The notes beneath the pieces were generated by a model. That model ran no database searches and was not told the DNA's origin. It worked only from the letters and a program-made list of their open reading frames with translations. The position numbers and the translations under genes were made by a program. Positions 5,179 to 12,574 of a stretch of 64,000 nucleotides of DNA are shown here, in pieces. Source of the DNA: a virus; IMG/VR virus record IMGVR_UViG_3300047318_000369, positions 26,553 through 90,552 of that record; one strand, written 5' to 3'. Every line of letters begins with the position of its first letter. Within the stretch, counting starts at the first letter, position 1.

Positions 5179-5460
5179 GATCACTTAGGGGATCGATAGG
5201 GGATGACACAGACGCCTAGCAAGGATCTCCGAAGGTTCCGCCAAGGAACTGCCACGGCGAAAGACGGCCCCGCCCACTCCTCGTCGAGGCCGTGATCTGC
5301 GAATATGCACACTCGCCGACTGGTCAGCGCGCTGGTGCAGTAGGGCCCTTCAGCTAACGGGTGTCTCGATTTGAGACACCCGTTTCAGCCTGGCTTGCCT
5401 TATGCAGGGCGGTTCGAGGCGCCCGACGGAGATCATTTAGGAGAGATTCCGGAGATCAAC
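5179..5460. other. Putative att (attP-like) region
   Basis: Downstream of integrase; core-like inverted repeat AACGGGTGTCT-CGATTTG-AGACACCCGTT (5356-5384); arm-like repeats TAGGGGAT x2 (5186, 5197) and a similar GATCA.TTAGG motif near 5431. Confidence 0.45.
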
Positions 5461-6682
5461 TCTCCCAGACATCCCGCCACCCCAGACTCCCCAGCGCCCT
5501 TACGAACAGCTCCTGCAGGCCATCCAGCCGCTCCTGCCGCATCGGCGGCGTCGCATGCTGGTAAGTGCCCTTGATGCCAGGGTACTTGTGCCCCGCCTGC
5601 TCGAACGCCAACACTGCCTTCACCCCGATCTGCGCCTGGTAGGTGTCGTGCGAGTGTCGGAGATCCCGCAGTGTCAGCCCCGGCTTGATCGGCTCCCACG
5701 CATCGGTACGGCCGTCCGCCACCTTGCGGATAAGTTCGGTCAACGTTCCCCGCGGCCACCAGCTGCCGTCCTTGCGCGCGAAGACGAAGTCGTGCGGCCA
5801 CTGGGTCAGGCGCGCTTCCAGCAGGGAGGCCAGGAACGGCGGAACGTCGATATCGCGGGCACTCTGCGCATTCTTCGTGGGCTCCACCCCGCGGAACCTG
5901 ATGCGCCGGCCGTCGTCGCCGTACTTGTAGTACTCGACGAGCGCGCCTGCGTCTTTGTCGATGCGCACGATGGGACAGGTGAACACACCGTCGTCGTGCC
6001 GCTGCCTGCGCTCCAGGAGGGTGTTGTGCCGGCGCAGCCCCAAGGCCTCCTCCACCCGGAGCCCGAGGAAGCCGATCGACAGCACGAGCATCCCGTCGAT
6101 CGGCCCCATCCGCCGCGCCATCTGCAGTACTTCCTCGGGGCGCGCCCACATCTCTTCGTGCTCGGTCTTGCGCTTCTTCGCCGCCTCTGCGGGCAGGCCG
6201 GTCAGGCGGCGCCCCTGAAGCGGGTTGACGGCCAGACAGCGTGCGTCGACGGCACCCATGAGGATCTGCGACATGAGCCTCACGCATATCTTCGTCGTGA
6301 CGTGAGCGCACGTCAGGCTGCGGGCCCACGCCTCTATTTCGAACCAGGTGATGGCGGCCAGCGGAACGTTCTCCCAGCGCGGCAGGACGGTCTGCGTCAG
6401 CCGTTCGCGCCGGTTCATGACGGTCTGGCCACGCGGCCTCTGGGCGGCCATCCACTCCTCGGCGAACTCGCCGAACGTCTTGCGTGAGAGCGCGGGGTCG
6501 ATCCACCGGCCGGCCCGCATGGCGGCCTCCTGCTCCTCGCCCCACTTCTCCGCGGTCCCCTTGGTGGGGAATCCGGGCTCGCTGCCCCACGTGCCGTCAG
6601 GTTTCTTGTACCTGGCACGCCAGGTGTACTTGGTGGTCCTCTTCCCGTCCCTGACCTTGTGGACCTTCTCGGCGTAGGCCAT
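5456..6682 (-). CDS. int: Tyrosine integrase
   Basis: N-terminal arm-binding region (WRARYKKPDG..GFPTK); GLRVEEALGL, TK, LRDLRHSH, AGH, TYQH motifs. Confidence 0.92.
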   Translation of the reverse strand: MAYAEKVHKVRDGKRTTKYTWRARYKKPDGTWGSEPGFPTKGTAEKWGEEQEAAMRAGRWIDPALSRKTFGEFAEEWMAAQRPRGQTVMNRRERLTQTVLPRWENVPLAAITWFEIEAWARSLTCAHVTTKICVRLMSQILMGAVDARCLAVNPLQGRRLTGLPAEAAKKRKTEHEEMWARPEEVLQMARRMGPIDGMLVLSIGFLGLRVEEALGLRRHNTLLERRQRHDDGVFTCPIVRIDKDAGALVEYYKYGDDGRRIRFRGVEPTKNAQSARDIDVPPFLASLLEARLTQWPHDFVFARKDGSWWPRGTLTELIRKVADGRTDAWEPIKPGLTLRDLRHSHDTYQAQIGVKAVLAFEQAGHKYPGIKGTYQHATPPMRQERLDGLQELFVRALGSLGWRDVWES

Positions 6683-6703: not shown

Positions 6704-7108
6704 CTACTCGGCGCCGGTTTCGCCGTCGTGGTAGCCCTTGGGTACACGCTGCCAGTACGGAGATCGCTCAGTGTCGAGATGGCCGAGGAAGTCGCCGGCG
6801 CGCTGGCTGAGGATCGACGAGTCGATGGTGTATGTGATCGCGTCGGGGCCGTCGTCGACCCCTATGGCGAAGGGGTCGGGCAGGTCGGGTACGCACATCC
6901 AGCGCACTGGGATGACGGGGCCGAGGGGTGATTCGGGAGGGCGGGGGGCCCAGCGTTGCGCCTGCTCGGTGAGGAGCTCGGCGAGCATCTTCGGCCCGTC
7001 TTCGCTGATGTCGTCCGCGTGGATTCTGAACAGGCAGCCGCCTTCGAGATCCACGATCTCTGGCGCTATGTAGTCACCTTGGACGCGCTCAACTTCCATG
7101 ACCCACAT
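6704..7108 (-). CDS. Hypothetical protein in immunity operon
   Basis: Between repressor and integrase; GGGGA upstream of ATG 7108. Confidence 0.6.
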   Translation of the reverse strand: MWVMEVERVQGDYIAPEIVDLEGGCLFRIHADDISEDGPKMLAELLTEQAQRWAPRPPESPLGPVIPVRWMCVPDLPDPFAIGVDDGPDAITYTIDSSILSQRAGDFLGHLDTERSPYWQRVPKGYHDGETGAE

Positions 7109-7207
7109 GCTCAATTCCCCGATCCGAGCAGTGCCCCCCCTCGGTGACGGTCCGTGCATCGAAGCACAGTTTTGAGTCACCGTCGACCGTCTGGGACCGG
7201 ATCAGGG

Positions 7208-7732
7208 TCAGGATTCTTGTGGGGTGTCTGATTCGCCGGGGATTGCCTGCAACTGGCGGCGCATCTTCCGCCACTTCTGCCAGAGCTCGTCGAGTTGCTC
7301 TTCGCTGAGATCCTCGGACCCCTTGAGGAGAACGATCAACCGGGTGTCGTCGTCGTTCTCGCCGCCGAGATTCACGACGGCGTGGTCGAGGGTCTTGCCG
7401 GAGCGGAGTTCCCGGTCGACGGCCGCCGGCAGGTCCGACTTAGGGTCGGCATCCCACTCGGAAACGGGCTGGGTGGCCGGTTCTGGCTCCTCGCCGCGCA
7501 GGATTCGGGCAGGGGAGTCCTCGGTCCAGCCGACGAGTCGAGCGTAGGCCCGCATAGTGCTGGTGACCTTGCCGTAGGGATTGCCATTGGGCTGCTTGCC
7601 CCGCTCGATGGCCTGGATGGGTGTGCGGGTCACAGACAGGCGTGTGGCGACCTCGACCTGCGTGAGGTCGGCCGCTTTGCGCGCTTCGGCGAACGCCGCA
7701 CCCAGGCGTTCCCAGTCTCGCTCTGACTCCAT
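7208..7732 (-). CDS. XRE-family immunity repressor (CI-like)
   Basis: ARKAADLTQVEVATRLSVTRTPIQAIERG; divergent from Cro-like gene; GGGGAG RBS. Confidence 0.85.
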   Translation of the reverse strand: MESERDWERLGAAFAEARKAADLTQVEVATRLSVTRTPIQAIERGKQPNGNPYGKVTSTMRAYARLVGWTEDSPARILRGEEPEPATQPVSEWDADPKSDLPAAVDRELRSGKTLDHAVVNLGGENDDDTRLIVLLKGSEDLSEEQLDELWQKWRKMRRQLQAIPGESDTPQES

Positions 7733-7948
7733 GTCTCCCCATCTTGCCCTACCTCCATGCAACCACCTAGCCGGGTTCAGGCCTTTTGACCTGCGACTGA
7801 GCGCACAAAAAGAGCGTTTGGGTTGCATGGGGCGTGTTACGCGTAACGCCACGTGAGCGACAGATGGCCCACCGTGGGCACTAAAAAAGTGCTATCAAGG
7901 CACTCGCAAGGCTTGCCCAAAGCACTCACAGGGGCTAGCTTTTGAGGC

Positions 7949-8149
7949 GTGAGACCGCACTCCAGCGCTATCCGCTTCAGAAGGAGGGCTCTAAAAATGA
8001 GCCTGCCCACGCTCTCCGTCAAGACGGGGATCCACAAGTCGCACCTCTCCCGAGTCGAACGCGGACTCGTCGGCCTGAGCGACAAGAACATCGAGAAAGT
8101 CGCGGACGCACTGGGTGTCACCCCCAACGACATCACCCACCAGGAGTAA
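7949..8149 (+). CDS. Cro-like HTH regulator
   Basis: RRALKMSLPTLSVKTGIHKSHLSRVERG. Confidence 0.85.
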   Translation: MRPHSSAIRFRRRALKMSLPTLSVKTGIHKSHLSRVERGLVGLSDKNIEKVADALGVTPNDITHQE

Positions 8150-8151
8150 CC

Positions 8152-8415
8152 GTGGCCCCCCGCAAGCTTCCCCCGGTCCGGGAGAACCTTCCCGCACCCA
8201 GCAGTCCCGAGGGCGAGCTCTTCCACTACCAGCCCACTGAGGCTGCGCTCTGGCTCCCCTTCAGCGCTCGCCAGCTCGCCCTGAAGGCGTTCGCCCGCGA
8301 AATCCCCCACGTGAACAACGGCAACAAGATCTGGTTCTCCGGGCTCAACATCCGGGCGATCACGGAGCAGTTCACGGTCCAGCCGTTCAACAAGCCGGCC
8401 CGCGCCGCCGCATGA
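8152..8415 (+). CDS. Excisionase-like DNA-binding protein
   Basis: AGGAG RBS; YQPTEAALWL..SARQL...AFAREIPHV..GNKIWFS resembles Xis/MerR-type wHTH. Confidence 0.55.
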   Translation: MAPRKLPPVRENLPAPSSPEGELFHYQPTEAALWLPFSARQLALKAFAREIPHVNNGNKIWFSGLNIRAITEQFTVQPFNKPARAAA

Positions 8416-8495
8416 CCGGCAAGGAGAAGGCCGGCCACCAGAGGCGACCGGCCGAAGCGACCCACCTGAACTCACCACAAGAAAGGAGGGGCCGC

Positions 8496-9056
8496 GTGTC
8501 CAGTGTGACAGACCGCGACTTCATCACCGAGATGGCCGAGGCGGTCGAGGGTGCGATTCCCGCAGGTGACTACGTGGCGTCGATGGTTGCCGCCGACCTC
8601 GTGGAGCACCTGAGGGCGCAGGACCCGGAACTGCTGGCCGGGTGGCTGGACTTGAAGGCGGCGGTGATCCTCGCGGACGTCGTGGCCCGCAGGTCGAACA
8701 GCAAGCGGCAGGCGGCCCGGATCGGCGCCCCGCGCAGGGCGTTCGCCGAGGCGGCCCGCAGTTTCGCCGGTGGTGACGTCACGGCGTTGCACCCCTTCGC
8801 CGCCGAGTACGTGGTCGACGAGGACAACACCCGTCGGACGGTGGCGAACATGACCGCCGACGACTGCCGGTTCGTCGCCTCGAAGTACGAGGACGCGGCG
8901 CGGATCTCGAAGTTGGAGGCGGCGTTCCACCGGGCGGTCGGCAAGAAGATCGGCGGCCAGTTGGTCGGCGAGGTCTTCACAGAGGCGCAGTACCTGGAGA
9001 TGTACCGCTCCGTCACCCAGCAGGGACCGCGAGCGATGCCGCGAGCAGCGGCATGA
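8496..9056 (+). CDS. Hypothetical helical protein directly upstream of the pentamer array
   Basis: GAAAGGAGG RBS before GTG 8496; stop overlaps start of array. Confidence 0.8.
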   Translation: MSSVTDRDFITEMAEAVEGAIPAGDYVASMVAADLVEHLRAQDPELLAGWLDLKAAVILADVVARRSNSKRQAARIGAPRRAFAEAARSFAGGDVTALHPFAAEYVVDEDNTRRTVANMTADDCRFVASKYEDAARISKLEAAFHRAVGKKIGGQLVGEVFTEAQYLEMYRSVTQQGPRAMPRAAA

Positions 9057-9795
9057 CGAAGAGCACCGGCCGACACACCGCGCCTCACACCTCCTCGACT
9101 ATTCACGCCCAGGCGTTTCCACCCCACTCGGAACGACTTCCCGACGCCACGCGACCGCACCTCATCCCAACTCTTGCCGACTTTTCTTTTCGCCACCGCG
9201 CCAGCCTCCACACCCCATGCCGACGGATCAACCCGGGCCGTTACTTCCCGCCCCTCGTCGACTACGCGCCCCTACGCAGGGCTTCCCGCTGCCGCCCCAC
9301 CCAGCCGACTTTTCTGCCCCCTCCTGCCCCGCGCAGTTCAGCGCTACCCATGCCGACTATCCGTCGCTTCACCAACCAGCCCGCTCTGACTCGCGTCGAC
9401 GTGCCAAGCCCACCCTCACCACGCCGTACCGACTGCCCGACACGAGGCCCGGCCACCCACCCCATCCCGTGCCGACTTCCCAATCCGGCTCGTCGCCGCA
9501 CAGTCCGAGCCAAGCCCTCCGACACCCCCGCCCCGGCCTGGACCAGCCACCCCGGCCCAGCTCCGACCGACTACCCGGTCCGGCTCGCCACCTCGCCACA
9601 CATCACGACTCGCTCCAACCGACATGCCATCTCGATCCGCCTCGACCCGAGCCCGCCCGCAACGACTGCTCTTCCCGTCTCGCCTCGGCGCCCACCGTCC
9701 CATGACGACTTGCCAACCCTCCGCAGGCCAGGCCTAGCCGACTACCCATTCCAACTCAGCCCACTCCGCCGCAGCCCACACGACCGCCCAGGTCA
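9054..9795 (+). repeat. Pentamer-phased array: 16 full CGAC(T)-initiated units plus partial end units; candidate guide-RNA array
   Basis: CGAC at 9096, 9134, 9178, 9221, 9259, 9306, 9354, 9397, 9430, 9473, 9520, 9568, 9620, 9663, 9706, 9739, 9781; spacings 33-52 in steps of ~5; C at position 4 of nearly every pentamer. Confidence 0.9.
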
Positions 9796-9813
9796 CCGAA
9801 AGGAACTCACCAC

Positions 9814-10485
9814 ATGACCAGCATCTTCGCCAGCTTCACCGACAAGGCGTGGCCCCACCGCTTCCACGGCACCATCCGCGTGAAGAACATCGCAGGCGGC
9901 ACGCCGACTGACCCGAAGGTCGCCGAGGGCTGGCTGCGAACCAAACTCGCCGACAAGGACGACCTGATCCGCGAGATGGTCGCCCAGACCATGGTCGACC
10001 GAGGCGTCACCGCCGACGAGGCCGCGAAGCTCGTCGACACCAACAAGCACCTCAACGGCTTCCGTCGCGACGAGGACGGCTTGTACATCGAAGGCCGCCA
10101 GTTGAAGGCCGCGATCAAGGAAGCCGCGTCCGTCGCCCGCTCCGTCGACAAGCTGAAGTCCCGCTGGGGCTCCACCAACAAGGGCGTCCAAGGCTTCGTC
10201 GCCGAACACATCATGGTCGTCGAGGACAAGCTCCACCTCGGCGTCACCGAGCCCACCGGCGTCCTCCAGTCCTTCCCGAAGAACCCGCGCACCGGCCAAA
10301 CCGGTATCCAGTACACGGAGTTCATCGAGACCGCCGAGTTCGACTTCACGGTCATCTCCGACTACGCGTTCACCGACGAAGAGTGGGCCATGCTCTGGCT
10401 CACCGGCGAACAGCAGGGCGTCGGCGCTTCCCGCTCGCAGGGCTTCGGCAGGTACGAGGTCATCAAGTGGGAGGCCACCGCATGA
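9814..10485 (+). CDS. Stand-alone Cas7/RAMP-superfamily-like protein
   Basis: YIEGRQLKAAIKEAA resembles the RAMP (I/L)PGSSLKGALR helix; C-terminal Gly-rich loop GVGASRSQGFGRYEV; GAAAGGA RBS; 223 aa. Confidence 0.75.
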   Translation: MTSIFASFTDKAWPHRFHGTIRVKNIAGGTPTDPKVAEGWLRTKLADKDDLIREMVAQTMVDRGVTADEAAKLVDTNKHLNGFRRDEDGLYIEGRQLKAAIKEAASVARSVDKLKSRWGSTNKGVQGFVAEHIMVVEDKLHLGVTEPTGVLQSFPKNPRTGQTGIQYTEFIETAEFDFTVISDYAFTDEEWAMLWLTGEQQGVGASRSQGFGRYEVIKWEATA

Positions 10486-10721
10486 GCGACCAGACCCCCG
10501 CGTCGGACGACACCACCGCCGTGATCAAGCACCTGTGTGCCGAGCTCGGCATCAACACCATCCCCTATACGGACGAGGCGGGTGTCTCGCACGTCGAGAT
10601 CGACGTGATTCACGTGGCCAGCCTGATCGAGGCCGGCACTCTCGCCGCCCGCGCCGAAGACCACCCGCCGTTCGTGGAGTTCGCCCGCCGCCTCGGCATC
10701 ACGCTCGGTGGTGCGGCATGA
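10482..10721 (+). CDS. Hypothetical protein
   Basis: ATGA-coupled to the RAMP-like gene. Confidence 0.65.
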   Translation: MSDQTPASDDTTAVIKHLCAELGINTIPYTDEAGVSHVEIDVIHVASLIEAGTLAARAEDHPPFVEFARRLGITLGGAA

Positions 10722-11149
10722 GCGACACCCAGATGACGCCGGAGCGCATCGCCGAGATCAAGGACTTGCTCAAGTACGAGTCCTCCATCGCCTTCTACAG
10801 CAGCCGGGCGAAGGAGTCGATGCTCCTGCTCGTCGAGGAGGCCGAGGAGGCTGCACGTCTCCGCAAGCAGGCGGCGATCGTCGAGAAGTTCGTGGCCGAC
10901 CGCGCCGACTACATCACCGCGATCCGTAACTGCCACCCCGACAACGGCCACGACTACGACCGCTGGCAGGGGCACGCCGAATCCCGACGGCAGCTCGCCG
11001 AGCAGCTCGGCCTGCCCGTCGCATGGCCCGCCAAGGAGGCTCCCGCGCCGCAGCACTACGACAAGACGCCGGACCCGCTGGACGGATGCCACTGGTGCGC
11101 GTGCGGCAACCCCTGGCCCTGCGAGCACGCCAAGGCGGTGACGGTATGA
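10718..11149 (+). CDS. Hypothetical protein with C-terminal Cys/His motif
   Basis: Coupled ORF; CHWCACGNPWPCEH. Confidence 0.65.
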   Translation: MSDTQMTPERIAEIKDLLKYESSIAFYSSRAKESMLLLVEEAEEAARLRKQAAIVEKFVADRADYITAIRNCHPDNGHDYDRWQGHAESRRQLAEQLGLPVAWPAKEAPAPQHYDKTPDPLDGCHWCACGNPWPCEHAKAVTV

Positions 11150-11457
11150 CCGCCATCATCTCGGCCGAGGTCGTTGCGAAGCTCCGCGCGCTGCGCAAGA
11201 TCCGGAAGGTCTCGGCGCAGCAGCTATCCGACCGGATGGCGGAACTCGGTTACCCGGTCGCGCGCACGGTGATCGCCAATCTGGAGAATGGCCGCCGCGC
11301 CGAGGTCTCTATCGACCACGTAGTCATCGCGGCGCAGGCGCTCGACACGACAGTCGAGGCCCTCCTTACCGAGCCGGTTCGCTGCCCGTCTTGCAAGGGT
11401 GAGCCGCCCGCCGGGTTCACCTGCAACACCTGCGGCCAGGGCGGTGAGGCCGCATGA
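11146..11457 (+). CDS. XRE HTH protein with C-terminal Zn finger
   Basis: LRKIRKVSAQQLSDRM...TVIANLENGRR; CPSC..PPAGFTCNTCG. Confidence 0.8.
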   Translation: MTAIISAEVVAKLRALRKIRKVSAQQLSDRMAELGYPVARTVIANLENGRRAEVSIDHVVIAAQALDTTVEALLTEPVRCPSCKGEPPAGFTCNTCGQGGEAA

Positions 11458-11924
11458 ACGCCGAGACCTTCAACGCCCTGCACCCGGTCGGCACTCCGGT
11501 GCTCGCCTACCCCGGCGCCCGGCCGCATGGCGGCCCGAGTGACGAGATGCTGATCACCCGCACCCGTACCGAGGCCCTGCACTCCGCCAGCGGCGACGGC
11601 GTCGTCTGGGTCGACGGCCACGGCGCCTACATCGCCCTCACCCACGTCGACCCGGTCACCGAGGAGGAGTGGCAGCAGGCGCGGATCGACCGCGATGCGA
11701 CCACGGCGGCCCGGCGCGCCTCTCTCCTCGACGCCATCCGCGCCTACCCGGGCGGTGGTTGGACGCCGGACCGTGCGGCCTTCGCTGCGAAGCGGGCCGG
11801 ATTCGGCTGGGCCGGTACGCGCACAGCGACCGCCGACCTTGAAGCCCTGGTCGCCGAGGGGCACCTGACGCCGGTCACCAAGGTGGTCATCAGCCACTAC
11901 GACCTGACGGCGGCCACGTCATGA
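11454..11924 (+). CDS. Hypothetical protein
   Basis: Coupled ORF; FNALHPVGTPV motif. Confidence 0.65.
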   Translation: MNAETFNALHPVGTPVLAYPGARPHGGPSDEMLITRTRTEALHSASGDGVVWVDGHGAYIALTHVDPVTEEEWQQARIDRDATTAARRASLLDAIRAYPGGGWTPDRAAFAAKRAGFGWAGTRTATADLEALVAEGHLTPVTKVVISHYDLTAATS

Positions 11925-12175
11925 CCCGCCCGATCGAAGACCTCGACGCCCCGCCGACGCTGCGCGACCGGATGGCCGCCCTGGTGGCCCGGCAGAAGGT
12001 CGACGCCTCAGCCGAGCGCCTCCGTCTGCTGCTGGCCGACCCGCAGGCCGGTGTTCACGGCCAGCACGCCACATCCGGTGAGGGCGCCGAAATGCGGCAT
12101 CTGCTCTACGACGCCGACTCCGACGCCAGCGTCCCCGCCTTCCCCTACCCGACCGCCCAGGAGGCGTCGAAGTGA
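11921..12175 (+). CDS. Hypothetical protein
   Basis: Coupled ORF. Confidence 0.6.
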   Translation: MTRPIEDLDAPPTLRDRMAALVARQKVDASAERLRLLLADPQAGVHGQHATSGEGAEMRHLLYDADSDASVPAFPYPTAQEASK

Positions 12176-12381
12176 CTGCGATCTCGCTCCTCTCCATCAA
12201 GGTCGACTCACCGCCCGAGCAGCTCAGCCTCGACCCCGAGTACGGGCTGCTGCTGCGCCTCGAAGTCGGCGTCCACCTCAACCTGTCGGACGCGTCGGAA
12301 GCGACCTGCCGCACCATGGCCCGGCTCCTCATGCAGGCCGCCCGCATCAAGGCCAGCCAGACGCTGAAGCAGGTGGCCTGA
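12172..12381 (+). CDS. Hypothetical protein
   Basis: Coupled ORF. Confidence 0.6.
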   Translation: MTAISLLSIKVDSPPEQLSLDPEYGLLLRLEVGVHLNLSDASEATCRTMARLLMQAARIKASQTLKQVA

Positions 12382-12382
12382 C

Positions 12383-12574
12383 ATGGCGACCGCCGTGGAC
12401 CCCCGCCCGCTGGCCGACCTGGAGATGGACGCCCTCGTCCGCGTCGAGCAGGAGATGGAGCGCCGCGCGCACGGCGTCCGGCCGTGGTCGATCGCCGACT
12501 ACCTCGACCAGAACGCCGCCGAACACGCACGGTTCGAAGTCGCACGCCGGGTCCGGCTCGGGCGGGTGGCGTGA
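12383..12574 (+). CDS. Hypothetical protein
   Basis: Operon position, AGGTGG RBS. Confidence 0.6.
   Translation: MATAVDPRPLADLEMDALVRVEQEMERRAHGVRPWSIADYLDQNAAEHARFEVARRVRLGRVA

What the first reader, a model, noticed from the sequence alone, without database searches (positions are those of the whole stretch)
9054..9795. Internal grammar of the array: CGAC(T) + (pentamer) x 5-9 + 2-3 nt, with a near-invariant C every 5 nt
Unit starts (9096, 9134, 9178, 9221, 9259, 9306, 9354, 9397, 9430, 9473, 9520, 9568, 9620, 9663, 9706, 9739, 9781) give lengths 38,44,43,38,47,48,43,33,43,47,48,52,43,43,33,42, i.e. about 5n+3. Examples: 9306 CGACT TTTCT GCCCC CTCCT GCCCC GCGCA GTTCA GCGCT ACCCA TGC; 9739 CGACT ACCCA TTCCA ACTCA GCCCA CTCCG CCGCA GCCCA CA. 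By hand count, position 4 is C in 111 of 112 pentamers (allowing a single 1-nt slip in the 9134 unit). Positions 2 and 3 are C-biased (about 70 and 62 of 112). Position 5 and the next position 1 vary freely. No two units are the same, so this is not a decaying tandem duplication: phase is conserved while content varies. Inference: a degenerate CCC-like scaffold triplet alternates with information-bearing dinucleotides, and CGAC marks processing or nucleation sites.
Basis: seen in the sequence. Interest (0 to 1): 0.9.

Follow-up and report, generated by a model that had tools for sequence, protein, structure and literature searches.

The report
Phage VIPR guide-RNA array, C-anchored
The odd C-rich stretch is a real, non-coding array of about 17 short guide units written in five-base steps for the CRISPR-like protein encoded next to it, a kind of phage weapon (VIPR) first described in 2026, so it is a new example of a known kind.

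Summary
Window 9071-9797 is a G-poor, non-coding array of about 17 units. Each unit is a run of NNNCN pentamers that starts with CGAC and overlaps the next unit by CG. The pattern far exceeds shuffles.

It is best read as the guide array of a VIPR system, a kind published in four 2026 bioRxiv preprints.
- The gene just downstream (9814-10485) is a lone RAMP protein homologous to the Vipr protein of phage SUSP1 (hhalign probability 93%).
- A conserved partner gene lies upstream.
- CGAC-anchored arrays of the same build flank homologues in 52 of 73 viral loci.
- The two free letters of each pentamer have even base composition.
- Read with the published one-base-skip rule, unit 9306 matches 18 of 18 letters of an integrase catalytic-box motif. 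It does so in 7 Streptomyces genomes and 2 viral contigs, always with the skipped base on the wobble position.
- The phage's own integrase differs at that site.

This branch differs from the published type. Its fixed letters are x-Y-C, not G-G-Y. Its units abut without a 3' tail.

The transcribed strand is not shown. I favour the gene's strand at about 2:1. No RNA data and no fold could be obtained.

This scan has already met the same kind of array on at least 6 other genomes.

The parts
8412..9056 (+). Conserved partner gene of the module (vap-like accessory protein, 214 aa from the ATG at 8412; the real start may be the ATG at 8496)
   Evidence: tblastn finds homologues in 37 of 73 loci searched, own genome included. 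All are on the strand of the RAMP gene and close to it: upstream in most, downstream in L037, L121 and L123. It has no Pfam, PHROG or NCBIfam family and no usable atlas hit. It shows no likeness to SUSP1 vap1. The first ~30 residues are not conserved in the alignments.
9071..9797 (+). Array of about 17 guide units. Each is k pentamers NNNCN from CGACN to NNCCG and overlaps the next by CG. The first ~22 nt and the last unit are conserved with the nearest relative; the inside is not.
   Evidence: structure and statistics. (only the flanks, the first unit and the last unit align with L002). (no conserved reading frame). (no Rfam family).
9306..9355 (+). Unit of 10 pentamers whose 9 free dinucleotides match a prophage integrase motif under the one-base-skip rule
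   Evidence: The skip-1 pattern gives 2 viral contigs (L089, L090) and 22 genome loci. Seven of the 22 are Streptomyces. All 7 lie in ORFs of 438-489 codons, in frame, at (K/R)R(M/I)YLLRHGHK, with varying wobble bases. The L089 ORF is an integrase (phrog_1, E 5.6e-25). The skip-0 and skip-2 patterns gave 0 hits.
9814..10485 (+). Vipr-like lone RAMP protein (223 aa); its RBS directly follows the last array unit
   Evidence: hhalign of its family (A3, 47 sequences) against the SUSP1 Vipr family (A4, 27 sequences): probability 93.4%, E 2.6e-7, 127 columns. Weak PADLOC hits are nearly all to RAMP families: Csm4 13 of 47 members, Cas6 9 of 47. Its G-rich loop aligns with that of Csm4 in the PDB (E 0.39). 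The family has 1477 proteins and 721 representatives at 50% identity, with no Pfam or PHROG family.

Best explanation
The stretch is the guide-RNA array of a phage VIPR system (Viral Interference Programmable Repeat).

Published mechanism for type II, inferred here. Copies of the neighbouring lone RAMP protein (Vipr, 9814-10485) line up along each unit, one copy per pentamer. Each copy hides the fixed triplet, here x-Y-C with only the C invariant. The two free letters are left exposed. The free dinucleotides of one unit pair with double-stranded DNA while skipping every third target base. A unit of k pentamers therefore reads about k-1 codons at codon positions 1 and 2 and silences that gene.

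Shown here: the grammar; the homology of the protein to Vipr; the co-occurrence of gene, partner gene and arrays across many phages; and one decoded natural target class. Unit 9306 spells the catalytic-box motif of integrases of other Streptomyces temperate phages.

Inferred: that the RNA is made; that it is cut at the CGAC junctions into units of 33-58 nt; that Vipr binds it; and that the RNA is the C-rich strand (same strand as the gene; my odds about 2:1).

The module sits two genes downstream of a cro-like gene (7949-8149), beside a divergent cI-like repressor gene. It would therefore act early in lytic growth against rival prophages.
For: (1) Grammar. It is real and far beyond chance. It is not coding: there is no period 3. 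The nearest relative, L002, has stops in all three frames inside its array. tblastn of the 254-aa frame finds nothing in relatives.

(2) Protein. A3 against A4 (SUSP1 Vipr family) gives hhalign probability 93.4%, E 2.6e-7, 127 columns. A3 against the single SUSP1 protein gives E 9.5e-4. RAMP-only weak hits appear in PADLOC.

(3) Co-occurrence. 71 CGAC-anchored arrays lie within 3 kb of the homologue in 52 of 73 loci. Some loci are only 29-35% identical or have 46% G+C. The partner gene is present in 37 of 73 loci.

(4) Free letters. Positions 5 and 1 are compositionally even; positions 2-4 are b-Y-C.

(5) Targets. The skip-1 pattern of unit 9306 hits an integrase motif in 7 Streptomyces genomes and 2 viral contigs, all in frame with the skipped base on the wobble position and with differing wobble letters. 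Skip-0 and skip-2 patterns give 0 hits. The phage's own integrase differs at that site.

In a 1.24-Mb local set, the only exact hits of units with 8 or more pairs were at skip 1. The last unit of L097 matches 16 of 16 the vipr genes of 5 other phages at KVAEGWLK. It is 2 letters off its own vipr gene.

(6) Print. The same period, skip rule, wobble alignment, recombinase active-site targets and vipr-gene targets are published for VIPR. Non-canonical repeats, including triplets ending in C such as GAC/NN and CAC/NN, are also published.

(7) Strand. 64 of 71 arrays have the C strand on the gene's strand. In the window and in L158 the array fills the gap between two genes of that strand, up to an RBS. 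In SUSP1 the guide strand is the gene's strand. The residue that holds the pyrimidine before NN in SUSP1 (R179) aligns with invariant R207. The G-reading residues D177, W178 and R138 align with A205, S206 and T168. The C strand folds half as strongly as the G strand (-163 against -308 kcal/mol; z +1.3 against -1.6).
Against: - No RNA evidence at all: expression, ends, strand and binding to the protein are untested.
- The hhalign match covers only the C-terminal two thirds of the protein.
- Only 1 of 3 window units tried against public collections gave a convincing target. Unit 9520 gave 1 hit that looks like chance. Unit 9568 gave none.
- None of the other 13 window units matched anything in the local sets.
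- In the local all-against-all test the excess at skip 1 rests on one independent unit: 3 exact sites against 0.5 in shuffles, and 6 against 3.0 with one mismatch.
- One 7-pair skip-1 hit (L094/L117 on L125) is out of wobble phase for the plausible gene and is probably noise.
- Seven of 71 arrays have the opposite polarity to the gene, so co-transcription with the gene cannot be the rule everywhere.
- The residue-level argument for the strand rests on a distant alignment.
- The partner gene has no detectable likeness to SUSP1 vap1.
Confidence: 0.85

Rival explanations
1. Same VIPR system, but the guides are made from the opposite (G-rich) strand. They would be repeats with a single fixed G (the NNNNG type named in the first VIPR preprint), each unit ending in a short GTCG 3' tag.
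For: - The first preprint lists only G-based consensus motifs (YNNGG, NNNGG, YNNNG, NNNNG), in its methods section.
- Seven of 71 arrays lie with the G strand on the gene's strand. In L037 and L121 two arrays of opposite polarity flank the gene pair.
- The target search cannot tell the strands apart, because the published rule lets either DNA strand be the target.
Against: - On the G strand the letter just before the free pair would be mostly purine. Read on the G strand, position 2 becomes G 46% and A 19%. In SUSP1 that pocket shuts out purines, and its arginine is the one contact kept here.
- Under this reading 42 arrays would need a promoter inside the gene and 22 would run head-on into it.
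- The later preprint writes its non-canonical repeats with triplets ending in C.
- The G strand folds strongly.
Confidence: 0.3
2. A long C-rich, G-poor untranslated leader that loads the termination factor Rho (a giant rut site). It would gate early transcription and have no guide function.
For: - C 49% and G 20%, weakly folded.
- It lies in the early rightward operon, two genes downstream of a cro-like gene.
- That rut sites are C-rich and G-poor is recalled knowledge, not tested here.
Against: - It explains neither the exact 5-nt phase, nor the CGAC anchors, nor the units quantised by 5.
- It does not explain the fixed link to a RAMP gene across 52 loci, including arrays placed downstream of the gene.
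- It does not explain the in-frame 18-of-18 match to integrases.
Confidence: 0.03
3. A protein-coding gene: the 254-aa proline-rich frame 9053-9817, coupled by ATGA overlaps to both neighbouring genes.
For: The frame is open over the whole array and overlaps the stop of the upstream gene and the start of the downstream gene.
Against: - There is no period-3 signal.
- Stop codons are rare in all frames simply because G, A and T are scarce.
- The nearest relative has 2 to 6 stops inside its array in every frame. In other relatives a different frame is open.
- There is no protein-level likeness among relatives whose flanking proteins are 83-93% identical.
Confidence: 0.01

Closest known systems
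VIPR type II system of Escherichia phage SUSP1 (Vipr + vap1 + vrRNAs). Sources: bioRxiv 10.64898/2026.04.26.720920, 10.64898/2026.04.26.720927 and 10.64898/2026.10.15.759431.
   Same: - A phage-borne lone RAMP protein homologous to the one here.
- A second small gene beside it.
- 5-nt-periodic arrays up- and downstream on non-coding DNA.
- Two free letters per pentamer.
- Targets read with one skipped base that falls on the wobble position.
- Natural targets include a rival element's recombinase active site and rival vipr genes. These mirror the targets of unit 9306 and of the L097 unit.
   Different: - The fixed triplet is G-G-Y in SUSP1 and x-Y-C here.
- SUSP1 vrRNAs are about 100 nt, with 9-16 repeats and a structured 3' tail with a pseudoknot. 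Here units of 33-58 nt abut and overlap by CG, with a CGAC start and no room for a tail.
- Three mapped G-contact residues are replaced.
- The partner gene is unrelated to vap1 by BLASTP.
Non-canonical and 'staggered' VIPR arrays mentioned in print. These are NNNGG, YNNNG and NNNNG repeats and staggered overlapping vrRNAs (10.64898/2026.04.26.720920, methods and legend of fig. S18), and GAC/NN, CAC/NN, WGT/NN and TGH/NN repeats in 21 clusters (10.64898/2026.10.21.760802).
   Same: - Period 5 next to a Vipr-like fold.
- Triplets ending in C followed by NN. The low-GC relative L158 reads mostly xAC/NN.
- Units whose end marks the start of the next.
   Different: I could not check whether this actinophage clade is among those described. 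The figures and supplementary tables are not held or are closed. The main texts that I searched (the first and third preprints) do not contain Streptomyces or Actino. Here only the C is invariant, the overlap is 2 nt, and the CGAC anchor is conserved from 29% to 93% protein identity.
Class 1 CRISPR-Cas crRNA-Cas7 filaments (types I, III and IV)
   Same: - RAMP protein with a G-rich loop.
- One protomer per fixed step of the guide, with lengths quantised by that step.
- An 8-nt repeat-derived 5' handle in crRNAs resembles the 8-nt junction here. These CRISPR properties are recalled, not tested.
   Different: - The step is 6 nt with contiguous pairing, not 5 nt with two read letters.
- No 23-50-nt repeats were found.
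- The Pfam RAMP model finds nothing in the phage genome.
TRAP-RNA binding (triplets spaced by 2-3 nt around a protein ring) and Rho rut sites (both recalled)
   Same: Short triplets about 5 nt apart on unstructured RNA (TRAP). C-rich, G-poor RNA (rut).
   Different: No TRAP-like or Rho-linked gene is tied to the arrays, whereas the arrays track a RAMP gene. Neither model predicts codon-phased matches to other phages' genes.

Membership tests
VIPR systems | A Vipr protein: a lone RAMP (single RRM core, G-loop, thumb) related to the published Vipr proteins | tested here: met
   Sequence level only. hhalign of A3 against the SUSP1 Vipr family A4 gives probability 93.4%, E 2.6e-7, 127 columns, with the helix-1 motif and the G-loop aligned. 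PADLOC weak hits are to Csm4, Cas6, Csm3 and Cas7 models.
VIPR systems | Tandem pentanucleotide repeats next to vipr, with a fixed trinucleotide alternating with a hypervariable NN | tested here: met
   Period 5. Positions 5 and 1 are even in base use; positions 2-4 are b-Y-C. Arrays lie within 3 kb of the gene in 52 of 73 loci. The fixed letters are not the canonical GGY.
VIPR systems | Canonical GGY/NN (YNNGG) repeat consensus | tested here: not met
   No GG step on either strand. On the gene's strand the pattern is x-Y-C/NN; on the other strand it is G-R-v/NN. The preprints allow 'a related consensus', so this bars type II only, not the class.
VIPR systems | An accessory vap gene in a minimal two-gene locus | tested here: inconclusive
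   A conserved partner gene travels with vipr in 37 of 73 loci. It has no family and no likeness to SUSP1 vap1. vap2-6 could not be compared because the supplements are closed.
VIPR systems | Carried by phages or proviruses | tested here: met
   The window lies in a 90,552-bp virus record with direct terminal repeats. A cI-like and a cro-like gene pair lies upstream, one gene (the partner gene) away. All 79 related loci are viral contigs.
VIPR systems | Free dinucleotides match natural targets with one skipped base, aligned to the wobble position | tested here: met
   Unit 9306. L097 unit on 5 rival vipr genes. Breadth is limited: 1 of 3 window units tried in public collections, and 1 independent unit of 192 in the local set.
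VIPR systems | vrRNAs are expressed, processed and bound by Vipr, and the complex silences the target | not testable with these tools
   No RNA run is listed for this DNA. No complex job was run.
VIPR type II (SUSP1 clade) | vrRNA of about 100 nt with an invariable structured 3' tail (pseudoknot) | tested here: not met
   Units of 33-58 nt follow each other with a 2-nt overlap. No Rfam structure was found. The C strand folds no better than shuffles.
CRISPR-Cas | Array of near-identical direct repeats of 23-50 nt separated by unique spacers, with cas genes | tested here: not met
   Tandem Repeats Finder finds only three trivial short repeats. The only shared element is CGAC plus phase. The Pfam RAMP model finds nothing in the phage genome at E up to 10.

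The most novel reading that the evidence does not exclude
This actinophage branch is a distinct VIPR type that is not among the seven described.
- Its guides are read from the C-rich sense strand.
- The protein has given up the two guanine pockets and keeps only the pyrimidine pocket, so a single C per pentamer sets the register.
- The guides are packed head to tail, with an 8-nt CCGAC junction serving as both end and start. This yields tail-less guides of 33-58 nt and arrays of up to about 2 kb (dozens of units), cut by the protein itself or by a host RNase.
Probability: 0.3. Interest if true: 0.55.

Novelty: new member of a known kind. Interest (0 to 1): 0.4.

Why it matters
VIPR systems were described only in 2026 and were worked out in E. 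coli and Pseudomonas phages. This locus shows the same logic in a temperate Streptomyces-type phage, with different fixed letters and a far more compact array.

It also gives a concrete, testable target: the catalytic-box motif of rival prophage integrases, read only at the amino-acid-determining codon positions.

That makes three questions directly testable. How does a Vipr protein set its register on one cytosine? How are abutting guides cut apart? Do phages of antibiotic-producing actinomycetes use such guides to block rivals' integration or excision?

For annotation, it explains hundreds of 'hypothetical protein plus odd C-rich gap' loci.

Tried and rejected
Coding reading. The 254-aa frame 9053-9817 with ATGA overlaps is rejected.

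Known RNA families. The Rfam scan of 7800-10600 at E up to 1 gave only one chance match on the other strand inside the gene.

Promoters and terminators. Consensus scans of 7000-12500 and of L158 9000-13000 gave nothing usable for the strand question.

Protein family searches for the 223-aa protein.
- Pfam, PHROGs and NCBIfam gave nothing.
- Weak ANTAR matches (5 of 23 members, best E 0.01) were judged chance.
- The Pfam RAMP model finds nothing in the phage genome at E up to 10.
- The ESM Atlas gave only unnamed viral clusters.
- A PDB profile search with A1 gave 0 sequences. With A3 it gave 5 at E 0.39-1.9: four Csm4 and one unrelated.

Cultured phages. DNA and tblastn searches found only Microcystis phage Mae-JY09.

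Partner gene. The atlas gave no usable hit and there is no likeness to SUSP1 vap1.

RNA evidence. No RNA holder is listed.

Laying contigs of X1, X2, X3 and X7.
- X1 and X2 are near-identical and may be the source.
- X3 and X7 are low-depth fragments. X3 has no cover at 9213-9515, which proves nothing.
- No unit turnover could be read from this.

Local target searches.
- 14 window units against 0.52 Mb gave only noise-level scores.
- The first all-against-all test used a too-greedy mask that hid true sites; it was redone.
- Skip-3 'hits' were units matching themselves in unmasked arrays.
- The 7-pair hit on L125 was judged noise, as was the skip-2 hit of a window unit on L097.
- No other window unit matched near the nine integrase loci.

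Early ideas dropped once the RAMP link and the preprints were found: a Rho-loading site, a TRAP-like ring, primase sites, i-motif or G4 DNA, and a type III toxin-antitoxin RNA.

Papers: what I saw.
- 10.64898/2026.04.26.720920: outline, the Results section, methods sections 18 and 20, and passages.
- 10.64898/2026.04.26.720927: outline and the first part of Results.
- 10.64898/2026.10.15.759431 and 10.64898/2026.10.21.760802: the search listing and passages only.
- Figures are not held and the supplements are closed. Fig. S17, fig. S18 and the tables of types I-VII may already show this clade.
Full report
THE OBSERVATION

Window 9054-9795 is strongly C-rich and G-poor: C 364, G 147, A 125 and T 106 of 742 bases. 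The G/C skew sets in exactly between the stop of the upstream gene and the RBS of the downstream gene.

The C's repeat every 5 bases. Autocorrelation is +0.24 at lag 5 (z 6.3 against 1000 shuffles), +0.14 at lag 10 and nothing at lag 3.

88% of the region lies in runs of six or more C's spaced exactly five apart. Shuffles give a mean of 22% and never more than 55%, in 2 x 1000 controls.

One refinement: a unit is a whole number of pentamers, from CGACN to NNCCG. Its last CG is the first CG of the next unit. That is why unit starts are 5n+3 apart.

IT IS NOT A GENE

A 254-aa frame (9053-9817) spans the array with ATGA overlaps at both ends. Three results speak against it:
- There is no period-3 signal.
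- The closest relative has several stops in all three frames inside its array, and other relatives are open in different frames.
- tblastn of the frame finds nothing in relatives whose flanking proteins are 83% and 93% identical.

Stop codons are simply rare where G, A and T are scarce. Rfam has no match.

THE NEIGHBOURS AND THE RELATIVES

The window belongs to a 90,552-bp virus record with terminal repeats. A cI-like gene (7208-7852, minus strand) and a cro-like gene (7949-8149) lie upstream, one gene (the 214-aa gene) away from the array.

The array is flanked by a 214-aa gene (8412-9056) and a 223-aa gene (9814-10485). Neither has a Pfam, PHROG or NCBIfam family.

The 223-aa protein belongs to a large family: 1477 proteins and 721 representatives at 50% identity. 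The named source records among the listed hits include Streptomyces, Streptacidiphilus, Actinomadura and Nocardiopsis.

In 79 viral contigs that encode a homologue, I kept 72 after dropping duplicates and added the phage's own genome (73 loci). In these I found 71 CGAC-anchored period-5 arrays within 3 kb of the gene, in 52 of the 73 loci. This includes homologues only 29-35% identical and contigs of 46% G+C. The longest anchored array measures 1.8 kb; a C-rich period-5 stretch of 2.1 kb was seen.

The 214-aa gene has homologues beside the RAMP gene in 37 of the 73 loci.

Against the nearest relative (L002), the flanks, the first ~22 bases and the last unit align at about 92% (my estimate from the alignment). 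The inside of the array is not alignable, although it follows the same grammar.

WHAT THE PROTEIN IS

The C-terminus carries a G-x-G-A-x-R-S-Q-G-x-G-R-F motif.

Against PADLOC, nearly all weak hits of 47 family members are to RAMP proteins:
- Csm4: 13 of 47 members for the most-matched model; the best E over all Csm4 models is 8.4e-6
- Cas6: 9 of 47, best E 1.1e-4
- Cas7 of type III-D: 6 of 47
- Csm3: 4 of 47

A PDB profile search finds the G-loop of Csm4 at E 0.39.

THE LINK TO PRINT

A literature search led to the 2026 preprints on VIPR systems. These are phage-borne lone RAMP proteins (Vipr) with an accessory gene (vap) and guide RNAs (vrRNAs) made of pentamers. In each pentamer a fixed G-G-Y alternates with two free letters. 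The free letters pair with double-stranded DNA while every third target base is skipped.

I fetched the reference phage SUSP1 and found its arrays and its two-gene operon. I then compared families. My family (A3) against the SUSP1 Vipr family (A4) gives hhalign probability 93.4%, E 2.6e-7, over 127 columns, with the helix-1 motif and the G-loop in register. The second SUSP1 gene does not match.

So the 223-aa protein is a Vipr homologue, and the array is the expected guide array.

THE GRAMMAR IN VIPR TERMS

Base use over 1860 internal pentamers from 322 units:

| Position | Base use |
|---|---|
| 5 | A .28, G .29, C .23, T .19 (near even) |
| 1 | A .27, C .26, G .23, T .25 (near even) |
| 2 | C .46 |
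| 3 | C .60 or T .20 |
| 4 | C (fixed by how the units were defined) |

The array is therefore (x-Y-C)(NN) on the gene's strand.

This differs from SUSP1, where the fixed letters are G-G-Y on the gene's strand. [quoted passage not shown] The low-GC relative L158 indeed reads mostly xAC/NN.

I could not see the figures or supplements. I therefore cannot say whether this clade is among those described.

DO THE FREE LETTERS READ TARGETS?

In a local set of 1.24 Mb (related viral loci plus the phage genome, arrays masked), I scored 192 units with 8 or more free pairs at skips 0 to 3, with shuffled-order controls.
- Exact hits occurred only at skip 1: 3 sites against 0.5 in shuffles.
- One-mismatch sites numbered 6 against 3.0.
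- The other skips gave 0 exact sites.

All three exact sites come from one unit, the last unit of L097. It matches 16 of 16 the vipr genes of five other phages at the codons KVAEGWLK, with every skipped base on the wobble position and differing wobble letters. It is two letters off its own vipr gene.

For the window itself I searched the three 9-pair units in the viral collection at skip 1.
- Unit 9306 gave two contigs. Both hits lie inside an integrase (phrog_1, E 5.6e-25), in frame at MYLLRHGHK.
- Unit 9520 gave one hit that is not in a long in-phase ORF.
- Unit 9568 gave none.
- The 0-skip and 2-skip versions of unit 9306 gave none.

In the collection of 185,579 species genomes the skip-1 pattern of unit 9306 gave 22 loci.
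- Seven are Streptomyces. All seven lie in ORFs of 438-489 codons at (K/R)R(M/I)YLLRHGHK.WLD, with different wobble bases.
- The other 15 are scattered over unrelated phyla, 11 of them in ORFs of 56 codons or fewer.

The phage's own integrase (window 5426-6622, minus strand) reads LTLRDLRHSHD at that place and is not matched.

This mirrors what the October 2026 preprint reports for SUSP1: a guide on a rival's recombinase active site, vipr-targeting guides, wobble alignment and sparing of self.

The limits are plain. There is one convincing target for one of the 14 window units with 5 or more free pairs. The other window units matched nothing in the sets that I could search.

WHICH STRAND?

This is not shown. 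For the C strand (the gene's strand):
- 64 of 71 arrays have that polarity.
- The arrays often fill the space between two genes of that strand, up to an RBS.
- In SUSP1 the guides lie on the gene's strand.
- The SUSP1 residue that holds the pyrimidine just before NN (R179) aligns with R207, one of only three invariant residues. The guanine-reading residues D177, W178 and R138 align with A205, S206 and T168.
- The C strand folds weakly (-163 kcal/mol, z +1.3) and the G strand strongly (-308 kcal/mol, z -1.6).

Against it:
- Seven arrays have the other polarity, and two loci carry arrays of both polarities around the gene pair.
- The residue mapping rests on a distant alignment.
- The first preprint names only G-based motifs.

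I put the C strand at about 2:1.

VERDICT

The role of CGAC in processing is untested.

The thing is a VIPR guide array, so it is a new member of a kind published in 2026. It has branch-specific features: x-Y-C instead of G-G-Y, abutting tail-less units with a CGAC junction, and an unrelated partner gene. These may or may not already be in the preprints' unseen supplements.

Earlier notes of this scan reached the same reading on at least six other genomes. I reached it from my own calls before reading them.

Noticed in passing
window 7208-7852 (-) and 7949-8149 (+): A divergent pair of helix-turn-helix genes (HTH_31/HTH_3, E 2.4e-9 and 6.3e-10), laid out like a cI/cro immunity switch. It lies upstream of the VIPR module, one gene (the 214-aa partner gene) away. 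The module would therefore be expressed with the early lytic genes unless it has its own promoter.
   Followed up: partly
window 5426-6622 (-): The phage's own tyrosine-integrase-like gene is a distant relative (about 24% identity, E 4e-8) of the integrases matched by unit 9306. At the matched motif it reads differently, so the guide would spare it.
   Followed up: partly
L037 1794-2570 and 3939-4430; L121 (same contig as L040) 9556-9868 and 11245-11572: In two related phages the vipr and partner-gene pair is flanked by two arrays of opposite polarity (G-phased upstream, C-phased downstream), as if transcribed divergently. In L140 both arrays are G-phased on the gene's strand.
   Followed up: partly
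PP395641.1 37749-38450 (Microcystis phage Mae-JY09): This is the only cultured phage in the phage collection with a homologue of the 223-aa protein (32% identity, E 1e-28). The gene is annotated as a hypothetical protein. I did not look for an array there.
   Followed up: no
L158 10847-10871: In a low-GC relative (46% G+C) a G/C-rich hairpin sits between the stop of the vipr gene and the first array unit. The array again ends at the RBS of the next gene, and its triplets are mostly xAC.
   Followed up: no
window 9053-9817: An open 254-aa frame with ATGA overlaps at both ends is a by-product of the G-poor composition. It could easily be mis-annotated as a proline-rich protein.
   Followed up: yes
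P0355, P0325, P0330: The canonical SUSP1-type Vipr family also has members in Streptomyces, Gordonia and Rhodococcus records. Actinobacteria therefore seem to carry both the G-G-Y branch and the C-anchored branch.
   Followed up: no
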